64,000 nt of DNA from Pocillopora damicornis (Eukaryota), in the NCBI RefSeq assembly GCF_003704095.1, contig NW_020847516.1, forward strand, positions 310,001-374,000, given 5' to 3'. Position numbers: made by a program. This document shows, one piece after another, positions 48,001-57,000 of the stretch (position 1 is the first letter of the stretch; every line of letters begins with the position of its first letter).

Positions 48001-51000
48001 AGCTCTTTACTGCGACCAATTCACATGAACTCAGTTAACAAAGCGAAACTATCTCGAAATAACCCTGACCCCTACCCCCACCGACTTAGCGTCATATTTC
48101 TTCAGAAACTTATCCTCTTTATTCAATTCGCAAATACATCACCTATAGCAAAGTCTTTCCTGGAGTGTTGCGGATGACAAAACAACAAAGAATTACAGCT
48201 ACACCAGTTTTGACTCAATTAAAGACTTGCACTAAATTTCTTTTAATAATCCATTTGAGATCTTTTGTGAAAATGACATTTGGAACAATTACGTACGCTA
48301 CATGGAAAGAAGGAAAATTAATTGCTAAATGTACATCGCGCCACCTTTGCTTCCGTTTAAGTTTAAAAACGCTATTAAAGCGATACAGGAGCGAATGTTA
48401 ACAAATTTTAAATCAGAAAAATTCTGCAGAATACTGTAACTGAGTTGGTCTTCCTCTTCAGGCAAAACTGTTTTGCATTTCCTTCGAAAAGATAGCTGAA
48501 TCTCGAAGGTTTAGAATATTCGGTGAAAAATGGGTTAGTTTATGTGAAATGAAATTGCCATAATAATAACTATTACTACTGATAACTTTGTTAAAATTAC
48601 TCGTGGTTCGGTCTCTGTTAAGATTTCACCCTGAAGGGCCTGCCTTGCAAATGACCTTTAAAAATTGAACACCATCCAAAAGAGGGTGGATCAGTTTTTG
48701 TAATTCATTCAGTTTTTGCGGAATTAATTCCATAATCACATAACCTACACGAAGACAATTATTCTTTTTTAAGACTTAGGCAAAGGTGTTAATATCTGTA
48801 AAAGGAAAAATTTTAAAACAGGGTTTTAGCGACGTATTATAAAACTTACATGTACGTCAGCGATTGGACGTTGTAGACTTCGGGTGGCGAATAAACTGCG
48901 AAACCGTGTTAAATATGGTGTAACTGCTTCGCGAATATTCAAATTCTGTGAATTCAGCTACTTGTTATATTATTTTTTAATTAGACTTTCACAATTGAAC
49001 GTCAGTACAGTAAAAAGAAAAAAAAACTCACGTCATAAACGAGGAAACATATAGTGAAATCATCAGGTATCATTTCTGAATTTAACTATTCAATTTCCCG
49101 AAAGTGGTGCATTTTATTGAAGTTGTAATCTGCTGAAAGGGGAGGTATCAAGTATAGAGCCAGAATTTGACTCTGATGTCGAGTTCCGCTCAGTTACCAT
49201 TGTCACCAATGAAAGTCGATTCCAAGACTACCGTCGTCCAAGAGAACAGAATACAGTTCATCATTTCGAGCTTAGATACATTGTACTGGTTGAGCCACTC
49301 AATAATTCGAACCATGTTTTTCTACAAAGACTTTTTGTTTGCATATTAAGCTATTATGACCAAAAATATTGATATCCTCCATAAACAAGCACTCTTATCT
49401 TTCGCCAACAGGGAGAGATAAAAGAGATGCAGATGACCTAGAAGCCGACAAAGAAGGTATGAAAGATTGTTAATCAATTGTTAATGGAAGTCGCGTCAAA
49501 ATGAAGCTCATTACTCTAAAAATTCCGCTTTCATCCACAGTTAGAACAATAATTTCTGCAATAGTGGACGCAATTCTGGACGGGGACAAGACGCGCCGTT
49601 CGGAAATACCAGGTAATATTTCATGACCTTACTCTCCTTGGATAGAAAACCTTTTTAGAAATCTTTTTTTCTTCAAGGACTGCTACAGCTTCAAATTTTA
49701 ATAAGTTATGAACGGAAGCCGCTCTCTTTTTAGTAATGCATAGTGGATAAAAAGACAATCACAAGCTCCTCAGTATAGAAGCAGATTAAATAAGGGCCGT
49801 AGCCAGAATTCAGAACAAGACGAGGCAAATTTCGGGTGCCGAAGGCGCGAGCCGCTAGGGGGGTCTGGGGACATGCTCCACCAGAAAATTTTGAAATCTA
49901 GAGGCTCAGAAATGCTTTTTTAAGCATTTCCTATGGCATTTTTCTTCAGAAAAGTCAATCTTGGGACAAAATCAAGAAGAGGCAATAGCCTCGTCCTGCC
50001 TCATGTTAGCTACGGCCCTGGAAATGGTTATGCTGTAACTTTTCCCCTTCGTTGTATAGTTTCAAAGGTAGTAAAAAAATGCCAGCCAGCCAGTATTTCA
50101 TCAGACTTCCCTTCAAAGTCGCTCATTAACACTCCTGGGTGGAGCCCGGCCGGAGAGGCACTAAGACATGAGTAAATTTTTTGCCCAAAAGCATAATACA
50201 TTGATCCAGACAGGTCTAGCTGACACGGACCCCTCTGGACATGGAGTCCGGTCCACTGACCGTGAGGCCACTATGTCTTCAACAATTTCAAAGGTAACAA
50301 GATTTAACCAAGGAATGATTCCTGTTTTAACCGATATTATTTGCTCTATTTCAAGATAATGAGGAAGATGAGTCGGAAAAGTTGTCCAGCACAGTAAGTA
50401 GCCTAATACCTGGCACAAGCAATGTAGAAACCAATGATGAAATTAGTGACAAGCAATATCTTACAAAGAAAAGAAGGAGTTTTATTCCGGTAGAAAAAAA
50501 ATTAGAGGAACATTCAGTTTACGAGACTGAACCCAAAGAACAAGCAGAGGATGCAAAGGCAGAGACCTCTGAAAGTGAACTATCGGGCGAGAATCAGCCA
50601 TTAACCTCAGGAGATTCAGAAGATTCAGAGCCCGAGAAAGAATCCGAAGAGTCGGTAGCCTCAGAAGGAGAAAACACAGGTATTACACATGCGAATGTTA
50701 TTCTTTTCCTTGTGTGATGAATTAACAAAACTCTTCACTTATTCTATGAGTTTGCGTTAGTTGAAACTATTTCATAAAATACCTCATGAAATATATACTG
50801 GTAAAAGCATTGCAAAAAAATACGCGCACGCATCATCTTTGTCGAACGTGGTATGTGCAATCATATTATACAGCTTGCAAAACCAATCAATATCCCAGGT
50901 ATTGTATTATACCACAGACAGTCCCATACAGAGGCGTGACTGTTTATATTAAAGTACATAGTAAATGGCTTCAACTTTGTATCATTCTTATCCTTATAGA

Positions 51001-54000: not shown

Positions 54001-57000
54001 GTAAGGCCTTCTTTGCAAATTTGTGTCAAAGTCAGATATTTGTTGGCAGTACAAACCGTACAATGTGAGAATATTTATAAGTATCGTGAATTCATAAAAC
54101 GAACACTTTTCGCCAGTTTACATCCCCTCACGCTTACTCACAGACGAAGTTTTCTTATCGTAATTGCCGAGAGTCAAATCTCTGCTTGGAAGTTTTTACC
54201 ATAAAATTGAGTTTGTGACTTATCTTTGATAGACTTGAGTGGTTCTAGCGCTTCAGGAGAGACTTCCAGCGATAGTGACGAGTCCGAGGAATCCGGTGAA
54301 TCAGGAACCTCGGGCGAGTCTGGAGAAGGCGGAATATCAAAGCGAAGCGAGATACCATCAGAAGAAAGGAAGGAAGGTAAAAATGAACCGGCTCTCTCTG
54401 CTTTCTTTACAAAATTTTTTTATGAAAATGTTAATTACGACCAGCTTGGGTTTTACGTATCAATGAACTTTTTGCGATTGCATGACGAGAAGCGCTCAAT
54501 TTGTCTAGTTTACAATCGTGAAATGAAGTAGTTGTCAAAGTCAACGTGTAAAACTACTGTTACATTGAAGCAGTTTTGATGGAGGCTATTCAATCAGATA
54601 TCCCTTCCAATCTCATGGTGTCTGATAATTTTATTCTGATATGTTATAATTTCGACATGCTTAAGATGAAGATTCAGAGGAATCCGACGAGTCCGACAAT
54701 TCTGGTTCTGGAGAGAGTGCAGAATCGGGGGAAAGTGCAGAGTCTGGAGAGAGTGGCGAATTTAGTGAAAGTGAGGAGTCTGGAGAGAGCGGCGAATCTG
54801 GTGAAAGCGAAGAGTCTGAAGAGAGTGACGAATCCGGTGAAAGTGAGGACTTCACTGAATCGGATGAAAGCGGAGAAGCAGCGATCTCAAAAAGAAACGA
54901 AATACCACAGGAACAAAGTGGTGGGTACATCGACGATAACTAATCATATGTAAGCTTTTATCATGAGGATCCTTTAGTACAATGGCATTTTAGGCTCATT
55001 ACGTTCATACATTTCTCATCTTTGTTTGAGATATCTCTATAGTCTGTCCATGAATTCCGAAAAATATTAAGGTTAGGGTTAGTTTTTTAGGGCTGGTTTG
55101 GATCAAATTGTCTCACTCTACAAGAACCGTTGATCCTACGTACTAATAGCCCTTCGTGTCACTGAATATTCCTCAAACTCGCATGAAACATTTGTTTTCG
55201 CAGCTGCAGTTATTCCAGATTACGAAGACGTGGAAGATTTTGAAGAATACGGAAATTCTGAAGAAAGTGAAGAAAGCGGAGAGAGTGGGGAGAGTGGAGA
55301 AAGCGGAGAAAGTGGAGAGAGTGGAGAGAGTGGAGAAAGCGGGGAGAGTGGGGAGAGCGGGGAGAGTGGGGAGAGTGGAGAGAGTGGAGAAAGCGGAGAA
55401 AGTGGAGAGAGTGGAGAGAGTGGAGAAAGCGGGGAGAGTGGGGAGAGCGGGGAGAGTGGGGAGAGTGGAGAGAGTGGAGAAAGTGGTGAATCAGCTGACG
55501 GAGGGATTGCCAAACGAAGTGATATACCCAAAGACCAGCAAGGTATGTACATATTGCCTCATTTACTGACAATTCTCTTACCACAAACTGAAAATTGGAG
55601 CCTATTTCTGTATTAGATAAACTACTTATTCCAAACGTTTCAGCAGCAGGTTTGCGGGTATGGCACTGAAGATGTGGTTTTAACAATTTTAATCAGAAGT
55701 GTTAAATATCAGGCCGCCACATTGTTATTGCAGAATCAAAGGATTTATCTGGATCAGGAGATTTACCTAAGTCTTCGGCTGAATCCGGTGAGCGCGAAGA
55801 GTCCGGTGAGTCTGGTGAGTCTGGCGAGTCCGGTGAGTCTGGCGAGTCTGGCGAGTCCGGCGAGTCCGGCGAGTCCGGCGAGTCTGGCGAGTCTGGCGAG
55901 TCCGGCGAGTCCAGCGAGGCCGAATACAAGCGAAACTTCATCCCGAGGGAAAGCGACGCCAAAGATGATGATGATGACGAAGATTCAACTGTGGAAACTG
56001 AAAGCAAAGAACAAGATTCCTCTGAAGGGGAACGAGAAGGGAGTGCTGATCAGCATGCCAACACAAGAGGGAAAGTCATTACTGAAACCATGGATGACAT
56101 CGCTAAAGCCGCACTGGACAACAAAATTGAGAGAAAGTCGGACATCATCCACAGTTTACCGCGAAACACCGAAGAATTTCCGATCAGTGAGAAAGAAAGC
56201 AAATCGCAAGTAAGAGAAAGGAAGACTGGTGCTGCTCTTAAGAATTTGTTCACTGCGCTGGCAGACGGTGAGACGCATGCGTCAGGGTCAGGAGAGGAGC
56301 TTGCTTTGAGAGAAAAAGCTCAAAGTACAAATTTCGTTAAAAGAGTAAGCATATGCTACAGTTTGCGTTATTTTAAGATGAGTGTATCTTCAAATATCTC
56401 TTTCACAGTCTTTGATGTGAAAATTAATTATAGAGCCTAAGTCATGTAACAATTACATACAAAAACTATATCATCTGCTGAACAAAATGATATAGAGCCA
56501 ATCCAACGCAATGGCTAGAACAGAAAGATCATGTTGACTAAGAGACGACATACCAGCATGAATTTCTTGGAAATCATTTTTAAGAGTAGCTAACGTGAGT
56601 TATTGGTCAAAAATAAGGGCATTCCGGCTGTTCCACGATTTGCGTAATCTCTCTTTAAAGCACCGACACATTCAAACTGTTTTAAACAATGAAATGAAGG
56701 CTGATTTGTGTCAATTTAGTATAGGTGCTCACCATAAGCCACAACCAGCTACACTGGTCCATTCATCCAGAGAAGTTCGTTGTACCTTGGAATTTTCTGG
56801 CCATACGGTTCACTTCGTCGACTCTATGAATTCATCTAATTATCAGATAATTGTAGGAATCAAGCAAAACTCTCGTAAAAAAAAAAATTTAGTTTTTTTA
56901 TTGACTTGACGGCTGGCCAGTTCTTACAAATGATAAGCGCTTTGAGATATCTGTAGTGCTTTGCTATCAGAAAACTTATTGTATCACTGCATTATTTCAA

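What the first reader, a model, noticed from the sequence alone, without database searches (positions are those of the whole stretch)
49541..56344. Exon-modular polyprotein: acidic (ESG)n cassettes punctuated by a conserved [KR]R-x-x-I-P motif
Eleven exact motifs (RRSEIP, RRSFIP, KRSDIP, KRNVIP, KRNEIP, KRNEIP, KRSEIP, KRSEIP, KRNEIP, KRSDIP, KRNFIP) plus variants KRDTIS and RKSDII occur about once per exon, mostly just before the donor. Exons 2-12 are all symmetric phase 1-1. The motif is far better conserved than the spacers. Inference: exon duplication built a precursor that is cut at dibasic sites into about a dozen polyanionic peptides, each starting x-x-Ile-Pro. The xxIP could be a protease-recognition, sorting or aminopeptidase-protection signal, and in-frame exon skipping could tune cassette number.
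Basis: partly seen in the sequence, partly recalled or inferred. Interest (0 to 1): 0.75.

Follow-up and report, generated by a model that had tools for sequence, protein, structure and literature searches.

The report
Secreted polyanionic Ser-Gly repeat modular protein
An 18-exon animal gene encodes a secreted-looking, extremely acidic protein made of Glu-Ser-Gly arrays, each module ending in a conserved Lys-Arg-x-x-Ile-Pro signal; the family has no name, and the protein is probably a sugar- or phosphate-laden polyanion that may be cut into pieces.

Summary
No composition-preserving shuffle reached 11 (0 of 20000, mean 0.012). The finding covers exons 3-13 of a larger + strand gene, 46325-58615. 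My model has 18 GT-AG exons and 4179 coding nt (1392 aa). It starts with a signal-peptide-like exon and ends in a non-acidic helical tail. Exons 2-12 are all phase 1-1. The gene holds 101 ESG triplets and 125 Ser-Gly dipeptides.

Unnamed ORF fragments of relatives show selection on the protein. KRNVIPTEVFEE is invariant in 5 of 5 hits. At the exon-13 site, basic-Arg is kept in 24 of 24 covering hits and Ile in 22, but Pro in only 12. The ESG array there has 13 units in this genome and 0-3 in relatives.

No Pfam family, named homologue or fold match was found.

Best reading: a secreted, disordered polyanion whose Ser-Gly serines meet the xylosyltransferase and Fam20C site rules. It would be granin- or serglycin-like in how it works. 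Cleavage at the Lys-Arg sites is plausible but not shown.

All searches went exon by exon. The joined protein was never built.

The parts
46325..58615 (+). Whole gene as modelled: 18 exons, 4179 coding nt, 1392 aa plus TGA
   Evidence: All borders are AG/GT and the phases chain without a break from ATG to stop. The last six exons are supported by P0053, a spliced-looking ORF of a relative. The total comes from arithmetic on coordinates; the exons were never joined.
46325..46388 (+). Exon 1: ATG plus a signal-peptide-like segment, phase 0->1, donor GTAAGT
   Evidence: It has two basic residues, then a 10-residue hydrophobic core, then small residues at -3/-1. This was judged by eye; no predictor was run. 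Its link to exon 2 rests on phase and on the absence of better candidates in 46389-49411. No transcript of a relative confirms it.
49412..49456 (+). Exon 2, 45 nt, phase 1-1, contains a KR
49541..49612 (+). Exon 3 (where the finding starts), phase 1-1; RRSEIP at 49594-49611 is its last six codons
50356..50679 (+). Exon 4, non-repetitive and acidic, phase 1-1; RRSFIP at 50472-50489
   Evidence: No Pfam family.
51000..51248 (+). Exon 5, phase 1-1; KRSDIP at 51008-51025 (right after the acceptor) and KRNVIP at 51212-51229
   Evidence: Five unnamed relatives were found. The second site and the 6 residues after it are invariant in 5 of 5. The first site is present in 4 of 5; the fifth ORF starts later and has T where the others have I.
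51553..52080 (+). Exon 6, phase 1-1; ESG-type array 51801-52027 (19 ESG); KRNEIP at 52050-52067
   Evidence: The Pfam Collagen hit covers the array only.
52379..52609 (+). Exon 7, phase 1-1; array 52482-52569 (7 ESG); KRNEIP at 52582-52599
52855..53109 (+). Exon 8, phase 1-1; 27-nt array 52890-53054 (11 ESG, all Ser codons TCN); KRSEIP at 53076-53093
53430..53840 (+). Exon 9, phase 1-1; array 53630-53789 (16 ESG); variant KRDTIS at 53798-53815
54233..54376 (+). Exon 10, phase 1-1; 3 ESG; KRSEIP at 54340-54357
54666..54920 (+). Exon 11, phase 1-1 (a donor 3 nt earlier, after 54917, is equally in phase); array 54707-54846 (8 ESG); KRNEIP at 54890-54907
55204..55542 (+). Exon 12, phase 1-1 (further in-phase AG acceptors at 55210 and 55219); array 55262-55490 (24 ESG, all Ser codons AGY; 90-nt unit 97% identical); KRSDIP at 55512-55529
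55734..56344 (+). Exon 13 (where the finding ends), phase 1->0; array 55799-55922 (13 ESG, all TCN); KRNFIP at 55928-55945; RKSDII at 56132-56149 inside a strongly conserved block
   Evidence: 34 unnamed relatives were found; column counts are.
57002..57056 (+). Exon 14, 55 nt, phase 0->1
   Evidence: Found by comparison with P0053.
57325..57392 (+). Exon 15, 68 nt, phase 1->0
   Evidence: Found by comparison with P0053.
57524..57590 (+). Exon 16, 67 nt, phase 0->1
   Evidence: It corresponds to a segment of P0053.
58027..58221 (+). Exon 17, phase 1-1, conserved helical segment
   Evidence: 15 hits among 1.84 billion representatives, 10 of them at E<=1e-10. All are short unnamed ORFs that diverge right after the donor. 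The 58221 end was fixed from P0053 and from that divergence point.
58350..58615 (+). Exon 18, phase 1, ends in TGA; basic and acidic helical tail
   Evidence: 82% identical to the end of P0053. The AF2 model of P0053 has its highest confidence in this part of the chain.

Best explanation
This is the gene of a secreted, intrinsically disordered polyanion from an unnamed, lineage-restricted animal family.

Route (inferred). A signal peptide takes the protein into the secretory pathway.

Cassettes (sequence rules shown met, modification inferred). The middle is eight Glu-Ser-Gly arrays in exons 6-13. Every array serine has Gly at +1 and Glu at -1, +2 and -4. Each therefore meets both the acceptor rule of peptide O-xylosyltransferase, the first step of glycosaminoglycan attachment, and the S-x-E rule of the Golgi kinase Fam20C. 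The chain would become still more negative through sugar chains and/or phosphates, and would serve as a cation- or cargo-binding matrix: a secretory-granule, mucus or mineral-associated polyanion.

Motif (conservation shown, cleavage inferred). Each module ends in a conserved aliphatic-x-Lys-Arg-[Ser/Asn]-x-Ile-Pro-x-acidic island. I read it as a convertase-type dibasic processing site with family-specific flanks. Cutting at all 12 such sites would give 13 pieces: 11 of about 44-177 residues with net charge -4 to -54, an N-terminal piece of about 54 that still holds the signal peptide, and a C-terminal piece of about 350.

Tail (conservation shown, role inferred). The conserved non-acidic helical C-terminal third is the likely sorting or assembly part.
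For: Gene model. 18 GT-AG exons are in frame from ATG to TGA. P0053 confirms the C-terminal chain.

Secretory route. The signal-like exon 1 ends in phase 1, as the following exons require.

Composition. In 1353 residues: 285 E, 106 D, 262 S, 155 G, 1 Cys (in the signal segment); 101 ESG, 102 [DE]SG and 153 S-x-[DE]. The corrected model has 125 SG.

Selection for the peptide unit, not just for a DNA repeat. The Ser codons in ESG are AGY in 24 of 24 units in exon 12, but TCN in 13 of 13 in exon 13 and 11 of 11 in exon 8.

Site rules from papers.
- Proteoglycan candidates in C. elegans were selected by a signal peptide plus Ser-Gly with nearby acidic residues (PMC2063922, passages).
- Fam20C targets S-x-E (abstracts of PMC8348777 and PMC11714710).
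- Prohormones and granins can carry chondroitin sulfate (abstract of PMC8434799).

Motif.
- 11 exact copies against 0.012 expected, with synonymous codon differences between copies.
- KRNVIPTEVFEE is invariant in 5 of 5 relatives.
- Basic-Arg is kept in 24 of 24 relatives at the exon-13 site, whereas the KR at the exon's end is not conserved.
- Intron positions after the motif are conserved: the relatives' ORFs diverge right after the donor codon.

Against: - Nothing here shows cleavage, glycosaminoglycan chains or phosphate.
- The residue four positions before the cut is aliphatic, not basic. From memory, furin-type enzymes want a basic residue there, so the site fits only the Lys-Arg type of convertase site.
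- The conserved flanks are longer than a convertase needs, which fits a docking motif just as well.
- The Pro is replaced in 12 of 24 relatives at the exon-13 site.
- The exon-13 array is 13 units here but 0-3 in 24 relatives. At that exon a long cassette is a recent local expansion, not an old requirement.
- The exon 1-exon 2 link is unconfirmed, and no signal-peptide predictor was available.
- No named homologue, Pfam family or fold match supports any function.
Confidence: 0.45

Rival explanations
1. Same secreted polyanion, but it works intact. The Lys-Arg-x-x-Ile-Pro islands would be short docking or spacing elements rather than cleavage sites. They could bind a partner, a matrix component or mineral, or simply interrupt the charge. 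The protein would then be one large proteoglycan-like or matrix phosphoprotein.
For: The conserved block reaches well beyond the dibasic pair. Ile is present in 13 of 13 copies, an aliphatic residue sits two positions before KR in 9 of 13, and Glu/Asp sits two positions after Pro in 10 of 13. Twelve residues are invariant in 5 of 5 relatives at exon 5. A related string, RKSDII, lies inside the best-conserved block of the tail, with 8 columns of that stretch invariant in 34 of 34 hits. That looks like a structural or binding element. No basic residue sits four positions before the cut.
Against: Of the six motif positions, the basic-Arg pair is the most constant across relatives (24 of 24). That is what a dibasic site predicts. 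A docking motif has no obvious need for exactly Lys-Arg in a protein that otherwise avoids basic residues: 2-11 K+R per acidic piece.
Confidence: 0.35
2. The conservation near exon ends reflects RNA-level signals, such as purine-rich splicing enhancers needed to define exons made of repeats. It would not reflect a protein motif.
For: 9 of 13 instances lie within 8 codons of a donor. The region is purine-rich, with GC skew up to 0.26 and AT skew up to 0.175.
Against: The copies keep the amino acids while changing synonymous positions, with four Arg codons, three Ile codons and four Pro codons. Four instances are far from any donor (exon 4, the first site of exon 5 and two in exon 13), and those checked in relatives are conserved.
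Confidence: 0.05
3. The protein is intracellular because exon 1 does not belong to it. The S-x-I-P strings would then be microtubule-end (EB1) binding motifs or the KR pairs weak nuclear signals, and the serines would be casein-kinase sites.
For: 6 of the 11 exact motifs read S-x-I-P. The exon 1 link is unconfirmed. I know the S-x-I-P motif from memory; the papers were seen as a search listing only.
Against: Five copies have Asn in place of Ser. The motifs sit in a strongly acidic context. From memory, EB1-binding S-x-I-P lies in basic, Ser/Pro-rich stretches. A phase-matched signal-like exon with a consensus donor lies upstream, and no alternative first exon was found. Runs of phase 1-1 exons are, from memory, typical of extracellular modular proteins.
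Confidence: 0.05
4. The (Gly-Glu-Ser)n arrays form collagen-like triple helices, trimerised by the helical C-terminal tail.
For: The Pfam Collagen model scores above its cut-off of 27.2 bits on the arrays of exons 6, 9 and 13 (30.0, 35.6 and 29.5 bits). The arrays are formally Gly-X-Y.
Against: The hit reflects only the period-3 Gly. The arrays shown contain no Pro, and every triplet carries a negative charge, so the chains would repel each other. Arrays are short and vary in length between relatives. No collagen-type flanking domain was found.
Confidence: 0.03
5. Not a real gene: low-complexity DNA that happens to be open.
For: All three + frames, and also - strand frames, are open across the arrays.
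Against: The 18 exons chain in phase from ATG to stop. Relatives conserve the non-repeat exons at 34-97% identity (34 hits; 15 hits; 5 hits). One relative's ORF is spliced the same way.
Confidence: 0.01

Closest known systems
Granins (chromogranins and secretogranins)
   Same: Secreted and very acidic, with many dibasic sites and conserved helical segments beside disordered acidic stretches. Some carry chondroitin sulfate (abstract of PMC8434799). They scaffold secretory granules (abstracts of PMC2812483 and PMC9526250). This is what the protein would work like.
   Different: No sequence match to any Pfam family, so none to the granin model. There is no Cys, so no N-terminal disulfide loop. 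Granins have no Ser-Gly arrays, no per-exon module and no x-x-Ile-Pro after the dibasic pair.
Serglycin and other Ser-Gly repeat proteoglycan cores
   Same: Signal peptide plus a run of Ser-Gly acceptor sites with acidic neighbours. Here 125 SG are present and the acceptor rule is met.
   Different: The unit is a triplet (Glu-Ser-Gly) in eight separate arrays, each closed by a Lys-Arg motif and an intron. The protein is about 1392 aa with a conserved helical tail. No Pfam match. Glycosaminoglycan chains are unproven.
Secreted acidic phosphoproteins that are Fam20C substrates (matrix and biomineralisation phosphoproteins)
   Same: 153 S-x-[DE] sites in a secreted acidic disordered chain (motif from the abstracts).
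   Different: No homology found. The invariable Gly after Ser is not needed by that kinase, which points at least as much to xylosylation. Nothing links the gene to a mineralising tissue.
Multi-copy neuropeptide or prohormone polyproteins
   Same: Signal peptide, repeated modules, a conserved dibasic pair once per module and acidic spacers.
   Different: The conserved element is not bounded by a second cleavage site. No Gly precedes any of the 12 sites, so there is no amidation signal. The products would be long polyanions, not short peptides.

Membership tests
Granin family | Sequence match to the family model | tested here: not met
   Pfam scans of exons 4, 6, 9, 13 and 18, of a stretch holding exon 17, and of the relatives P0053 and P0054 gave no family except Collagen on the arrays.
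Granin family | Acidic secretory protein with multiple dibasic sites | tested here: met
   391 D+E against 133 K+R in 1353 residues. 32 dibasic pairs are listed.
Granin family | N-terminal disulfide loop (chromogranin A/B; feature recalled from memory) | tested here: not met
   One Cys in all exon peptides, and it lies in the signal segment.
Granin family | Storage in dense-core granules | not testable with these tools
   No expression or localisation data.
Proteoglycan core protein (criteria used in PMC2063922) | Signal peptide | tested here: inconclusive
   Exon 1 looks like one by eye and is in phase. No predictor was run and no transcript confirms the join.
Proteoglycan core protein (criteria used in PMC2063922) | Ser followed by Gly with nearby acidic residues | tested here: met
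   125 SG; 102 of the 126 SG in the earlier 16-exon model follow D/E directly. Rule taken.
Proteoglycan core protein (criteria used in PMC2063922) | A glycosaminoglycan chain actually attached | not testable with these tools
   Needs a glycoproteomic description of the native protein.
Serglycin | Sequence match to the family model | tested here: not met
   No such Pfam hit.
Fam20C substrates | S-x-E sites in a secretory-pathway protein | tested here: met
   153 S-x-[DE]. Motif from the abstracts.
Fam20C substrates | Phosphoserine present | not testable with these tools
   Needs phosphoproteomic description.
Collagen | Gly-X-Y repeat scoring above the Pfam cut-off | tested here: met
   29.5-35.6 bits against a cut-off of 27.2, on the arrays only.
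Collagen | Pro-rich X/Y positions that stabilise the helix (feature recalled from memory) | tested here: not met
   No Pro in the arrays (sequences); 32 Pro in 1353 residues overall.
Multi-copy neuropeptide precursor | Conserved peptide copies bounded by basic sites on both sides, often with Gly before the site | tested here: not met
   One dibasic site per module. The residues before the 12 sites are S, T, V, A, Y or K, never G.
S-x-I-P plus-end tracking proteins | [S/T]-x-[I/L]-P in a basic, Ser/Pro-rich, cytoplasmic context (feature recalled from memory; papers seen as listing only) | tested here: not met
   6 of 11 motifs have Ser and 5 have Asn. The context is strongly acidic and the protein looks secreted.

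The most novel reading that the evidence does not exclude
A proteoglycan polyprotein: one precursor made of exon-sized cassettes, each a Ser-Gly acceptor array. After glycosaminoglycan attachment or hyper-phosphorylation, convertases would cut it at a family-specific Lys-Arg-x-x-Ile-Pro signal into about a dozen separate polyanionic glyco- or phosphopeptides. Cassette number and array length could be tuned by in-frame exon skipping and by repeat slippage. My two searches on the repeat found no such precursor described.
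Probability: 0.17. Interest if true: 0.7.

Novelty: new variant of a known kind. Interest (0 to 1): 0.45.

Why it matters
If the reading holds, this adds a family with an unusually clean design to the short list of animal secretory polyanions (granins, serglycin, matrix phosphoproteins). In each exon-sized module a serine array satisfies two different Golgi modification rules at once, and the module is closed by one conserved dibasic signal.

That design makes concrete, descriptive questions possible:
- Which modification wins on a sequence that fits both rules?
- Are proteoglycan-like cores ever processed as polyproteins?
- How fast do such arrays expand? Here one array has 13 units against 0-3 in relatives.

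If the reading does not hold, this remains an ordinary, lineage-restricted acidic repeat protein of unknown role.

Tried and rejected
Searches that led nowhere.
- Word-based search with the non-repeat part of exon 13 among proteins of 357-2000 aa found none. No full-length annotated protein of this gene appears to be in that collection.
- ESM Atlas with P0053 gave no usable hit.
- Pfam found nothing beyond the Collagen artefact.
- PDB by sequence gave only a 28-residue local match of exon 17 to a TAL-effector repeat chain (E 2.6e-5, 0 stretches passing). I take it as chance and did not fetch it. Exon 18 gave nothing below E 0.1.
- The AF2 model of P0053 had mean pLDDT 66 and pTM 0.36, with helices throughout. 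Foldseek against PDB gave 0 matches at E<=0.001. The best was the APLP1 E2 domain at E 0.35 and TM 0.15-0.21, which is not significant.
- Rfam and tRNA scans of the window gave 0 hits.
- Papers: the nine-letter repeat string occurs in 0 papers. 'ESG repeats', 'SGE repeats', 'Glu-Ser-Gly' and 'Ser-Gly-Glu' returned 28 papers; the 20 listed are irrelevant by title and abstract. My statement that this architecture is not in print rests on these two searches only.

Considered and rejected.
- A tandem paralogue at 22.6-26.2 kb. Only the 9-residue motif neighbourhood aligns (E 0.016), and its other exons do not.
- Recent exon duplication. Direct repeats in 46000-58700 are confined to the arrays, apart from two short two-copy families of 31-40 nt, and no introns match.
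- Extra exons between exons 1 and 2. The only candidates are hydrophobic or basic open stretches with weak sites.

Taxon. It is not established. The Roc-GTPase neighbour's nearest Atlas clusters are most often molluscan, but the scores are below 0.9, so this is a lead only.

What stayed unchecked.
- Genomic context of the relatives.
- Supplementary files of papers, which were not requested.

Full report
What is there.

The window is animal-like DNA of about 38% G+C. It has one N run at 3678-3777, which I left alone. I do not take it for human. Between 50 and 56 kb the + strand is strongly purine-rich, with GC skew up to 0.26 and AT skew up to 0.175.

I read 49000-57000 and listed the stop-free stretches.

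A six-frame scan of all 64 kb for [KR]R-x-x-I-P gave 12 hits on the + strand. The - strand gave 2 hits, one of them across a stop. Shuffling residues within each exon peptide gave a mean of 0.012 motifs, and 0 of 20000 shuffles reached 11.

Gene model.

The finding is the middle of a larger gene.

- Upstream, 46325-46388 holds an ATG followed by a signal-peptide-like segment: two basic residues, a ten-residue hydrophobic core, and small residues at -3/-1. It ends in phase 1 on a GTAAGT donor.
- A 45-nt phase 1-1 exon lies at 49412-49456.
- Downstream of 56344 there are five more exons ending in TGA at 58615.
- Two of these (57002-57056 and 57325-57392) and the true end of exon 17 (58221) came from P0053. 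This is a 306-aa unnamed ORF of a relative that runs uninterrupted from the exon-13 tail to the C-terminus, and so looks spliced.

The final model has 18 exons, all with AG/GT borders, 4179 coding nt and 1392 aa. Exons 2-12 are all phase 1-1.

No credible extra exon lies between exons 1 and 2. That join is supported only by phase.

I left out the joined step: the spliced protein was never built or searched, and the totals are arithmetic on coordinates.

Anatomy of the modules.

The 13 motif instances are listed. Nine end 0-8 residues before a donor. In exon 5 one instance sits two residues after the acceptor, so at that junction the intron precedes the motif rather than following it.

The conserved island is longer than six residues (column counts over 13 instances):
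- aliphatic residue two positions before the Lys-Arg in 9;
- Lys/Arg then Arg in 12;
- Ser (7), Asn (5) or Asp (1) next;
- Ile in 13;
- Pro in 11;
- Glu/Asp two positions after the Pro in 10.

Copies use different synonymous codons, so the constraint acts on the peptide.

The cassettes are 9-nt-based tandem arrays holding 101 ESG triplets and, in the corrected model, 125 Ser-Gly dipeptides. The Ser codons in ESG are all AGY in exon 12 (24 of 24) but all TCN in exons 13 (13 of 13) and 8 (11 of 11). The arrays therefore grew independently by slippage yet encode the same tripeptide. Direct repeats are confined to the arrays, and the introns share nothing.

Relatives.

The collections hold no annotated protein of this gene, only short unnamed ORFs called on relatives' contigs. 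Each is one exon plus read-through into the intron.

Exon 17 gave 15 hits in 1.84 billion representatives, 10 of them at E<=1e-10.

Exon 5 gave 5 hits at 49-78% identity.
- KRNVIPTEVFEE is invariant in 5 of 5, against 57% mean column identity.
- The first site is present in 4 of 5. The fifth ORF starts later and has Thr where the others have Ile.

Exon 13 gave 34 hits at 34-97% identity, of which 24 cover the KRNFIP site.
- Basic-Arg is kept in 24 of 24.
- Ile is kept in 22, with Val in 2.
- Pro is kept in only 12, with Ser in 10, Leu in 1 and Ala in 1.
- These relatives have 0-3 ESG units before the site, against 13 here, so this array is a lineage-specific expansion.

The best-conserved parts are two blocks in the exon-13 tail. 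One is 83% identical and contains the RKSDII variant, with 8 columns of that stretch invariant in 34 of 34 hits. The other is 91% identical.

Relatives' ORFs diverge right after the donor codon, so intron positions are conserved.

The cassettes of exons 6-12 could not be checked in relatives.

What it is not.

- No Pfam family matches any non-repeat exon, P0053 or P0054. The only hits are Collagen on the arrays, which reflects the period-3 Gly.
- PDB sequence searches, the ESM Atlas, and an AF2 model of the C-terminal third with Foldseek gave nothing significant. The model does predict a run of helices, with pLDDT 70-95 over the last 180 residues or so.
- Two paper searches on the repeat found no description of it.

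How it most likely works.

Shown:
- the gene is real and spliced;
- the product is extremely acidic and free of Cys after the signal segment;
- the motif and the C-terminal blocks are under purifying selection;
- array length is labile.

Inferred:
1. The protein is secreted.
2. The array serines are modified. Every one has Gly at +1 and acidic neighbours. That is the one strict acceptor rule of xylosyltransferase plus its general preference (PMC5992326, passages; PMC10424144 and PMC2063922, passages). Every one also has Glu at +2, the Fam20C rule (abstracts). The unvarying Gly argues somewhat for xylosylation, but sequence alone cannot decide.
3. The Lys-Arg pairs are convertase-type sites. 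Cutting at all 12 would give 13 pieces. Eleven are about 44-177 residues with net charge -4 to -54. One is an N-terminal piece of about 54 residues that still holds the signal peptide. One is a C-terminal piece of about 350 residues.
4. The helical tail sorts or assembles the protein.

Functionally this resembles granins and serglycin. Granins are acidic granule proteins, and prohormones can carry chondroitin sulfate (abstracts).

It fails the membership tests for those families: no family match, no disulfide loop.

Confidence is about 0.45 for the processed-polyanion reading and 0.35 for the same protein acting uncleaved with the motif as a docking island. Small shares go to an RNA-level constraint, an intracellular S-x-I-P reading and a collagen-like helix.

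Verdict.

The emphasis should shift from 'ESG spacers' to 'Ser-Gly acceptor arrays'.

The gene belongs to an unnamed family and is a new variant of a known kind, the secretory polyanions. Interest is moderate at 0.45. The boldest reading the evidence still allows, a proteoglycan polyprotein, has a probability of about 0.17.

Noticed in passing
window 20736-21748: Perfect 503-nt inverted repeat with a 7-nt spacer (100% complementary), carrying mirrored 121-aa ORFs that match no Pfam family. It is either a foldback element or an assembly artefact.
   Followed up: partly
window 22600-26250, + strand: Another acidic multi-exon gene with a single KRNVIP at 23423. Only the 9-residue motif neighbourhood aligns with exon 5 (E 0.016), and its other exons show no similarity to the C-terminal exons. 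Paralogy is not shown.
   Followed up: partly
window 60848-61027: 22-nt unit repeated 8.2 times at 100% identity.
   Followed up: no
window 3650-5680, - strand: Long intronless ORF with Roc/Ras GTPase domains that runs into the N run. Its nearest Atlas clusters are most often molluscan, with scores below 0.9, so this is only a lead for the taxon.
   Followed up: partly
window 19157-19507 and 37163-38661, + strand: A WSC-domain exon and a lipoxygenase exon (Pfam hit on 38221-38658 only). These are neighbouring genes unrelated to the finding.
   Followed up: no
window 58027-58221: The exon-17 peptide has a 28-residue local match to a TAL-effector repeat chain in the PDB (E 2.6e-5, no stretch passing on its own). 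I take it as chance and did not fetch it.
   Followed up: no
window 55262-55490 and 55799-55922: The two purest arrays (a 90-nt unit at 97% identity and a 9-nt unit at 89%) use opposite Ser codon families. The - strand over them is also open, as Ser-Pro-Leu and Asp-Ser-Pro runs, but no splice model or relative supports it.
   Followed up: partly
window 22840-22880: A run of about 25 C directly followed by about 14 A, just after an exon-like stretch.
   Followed up: no
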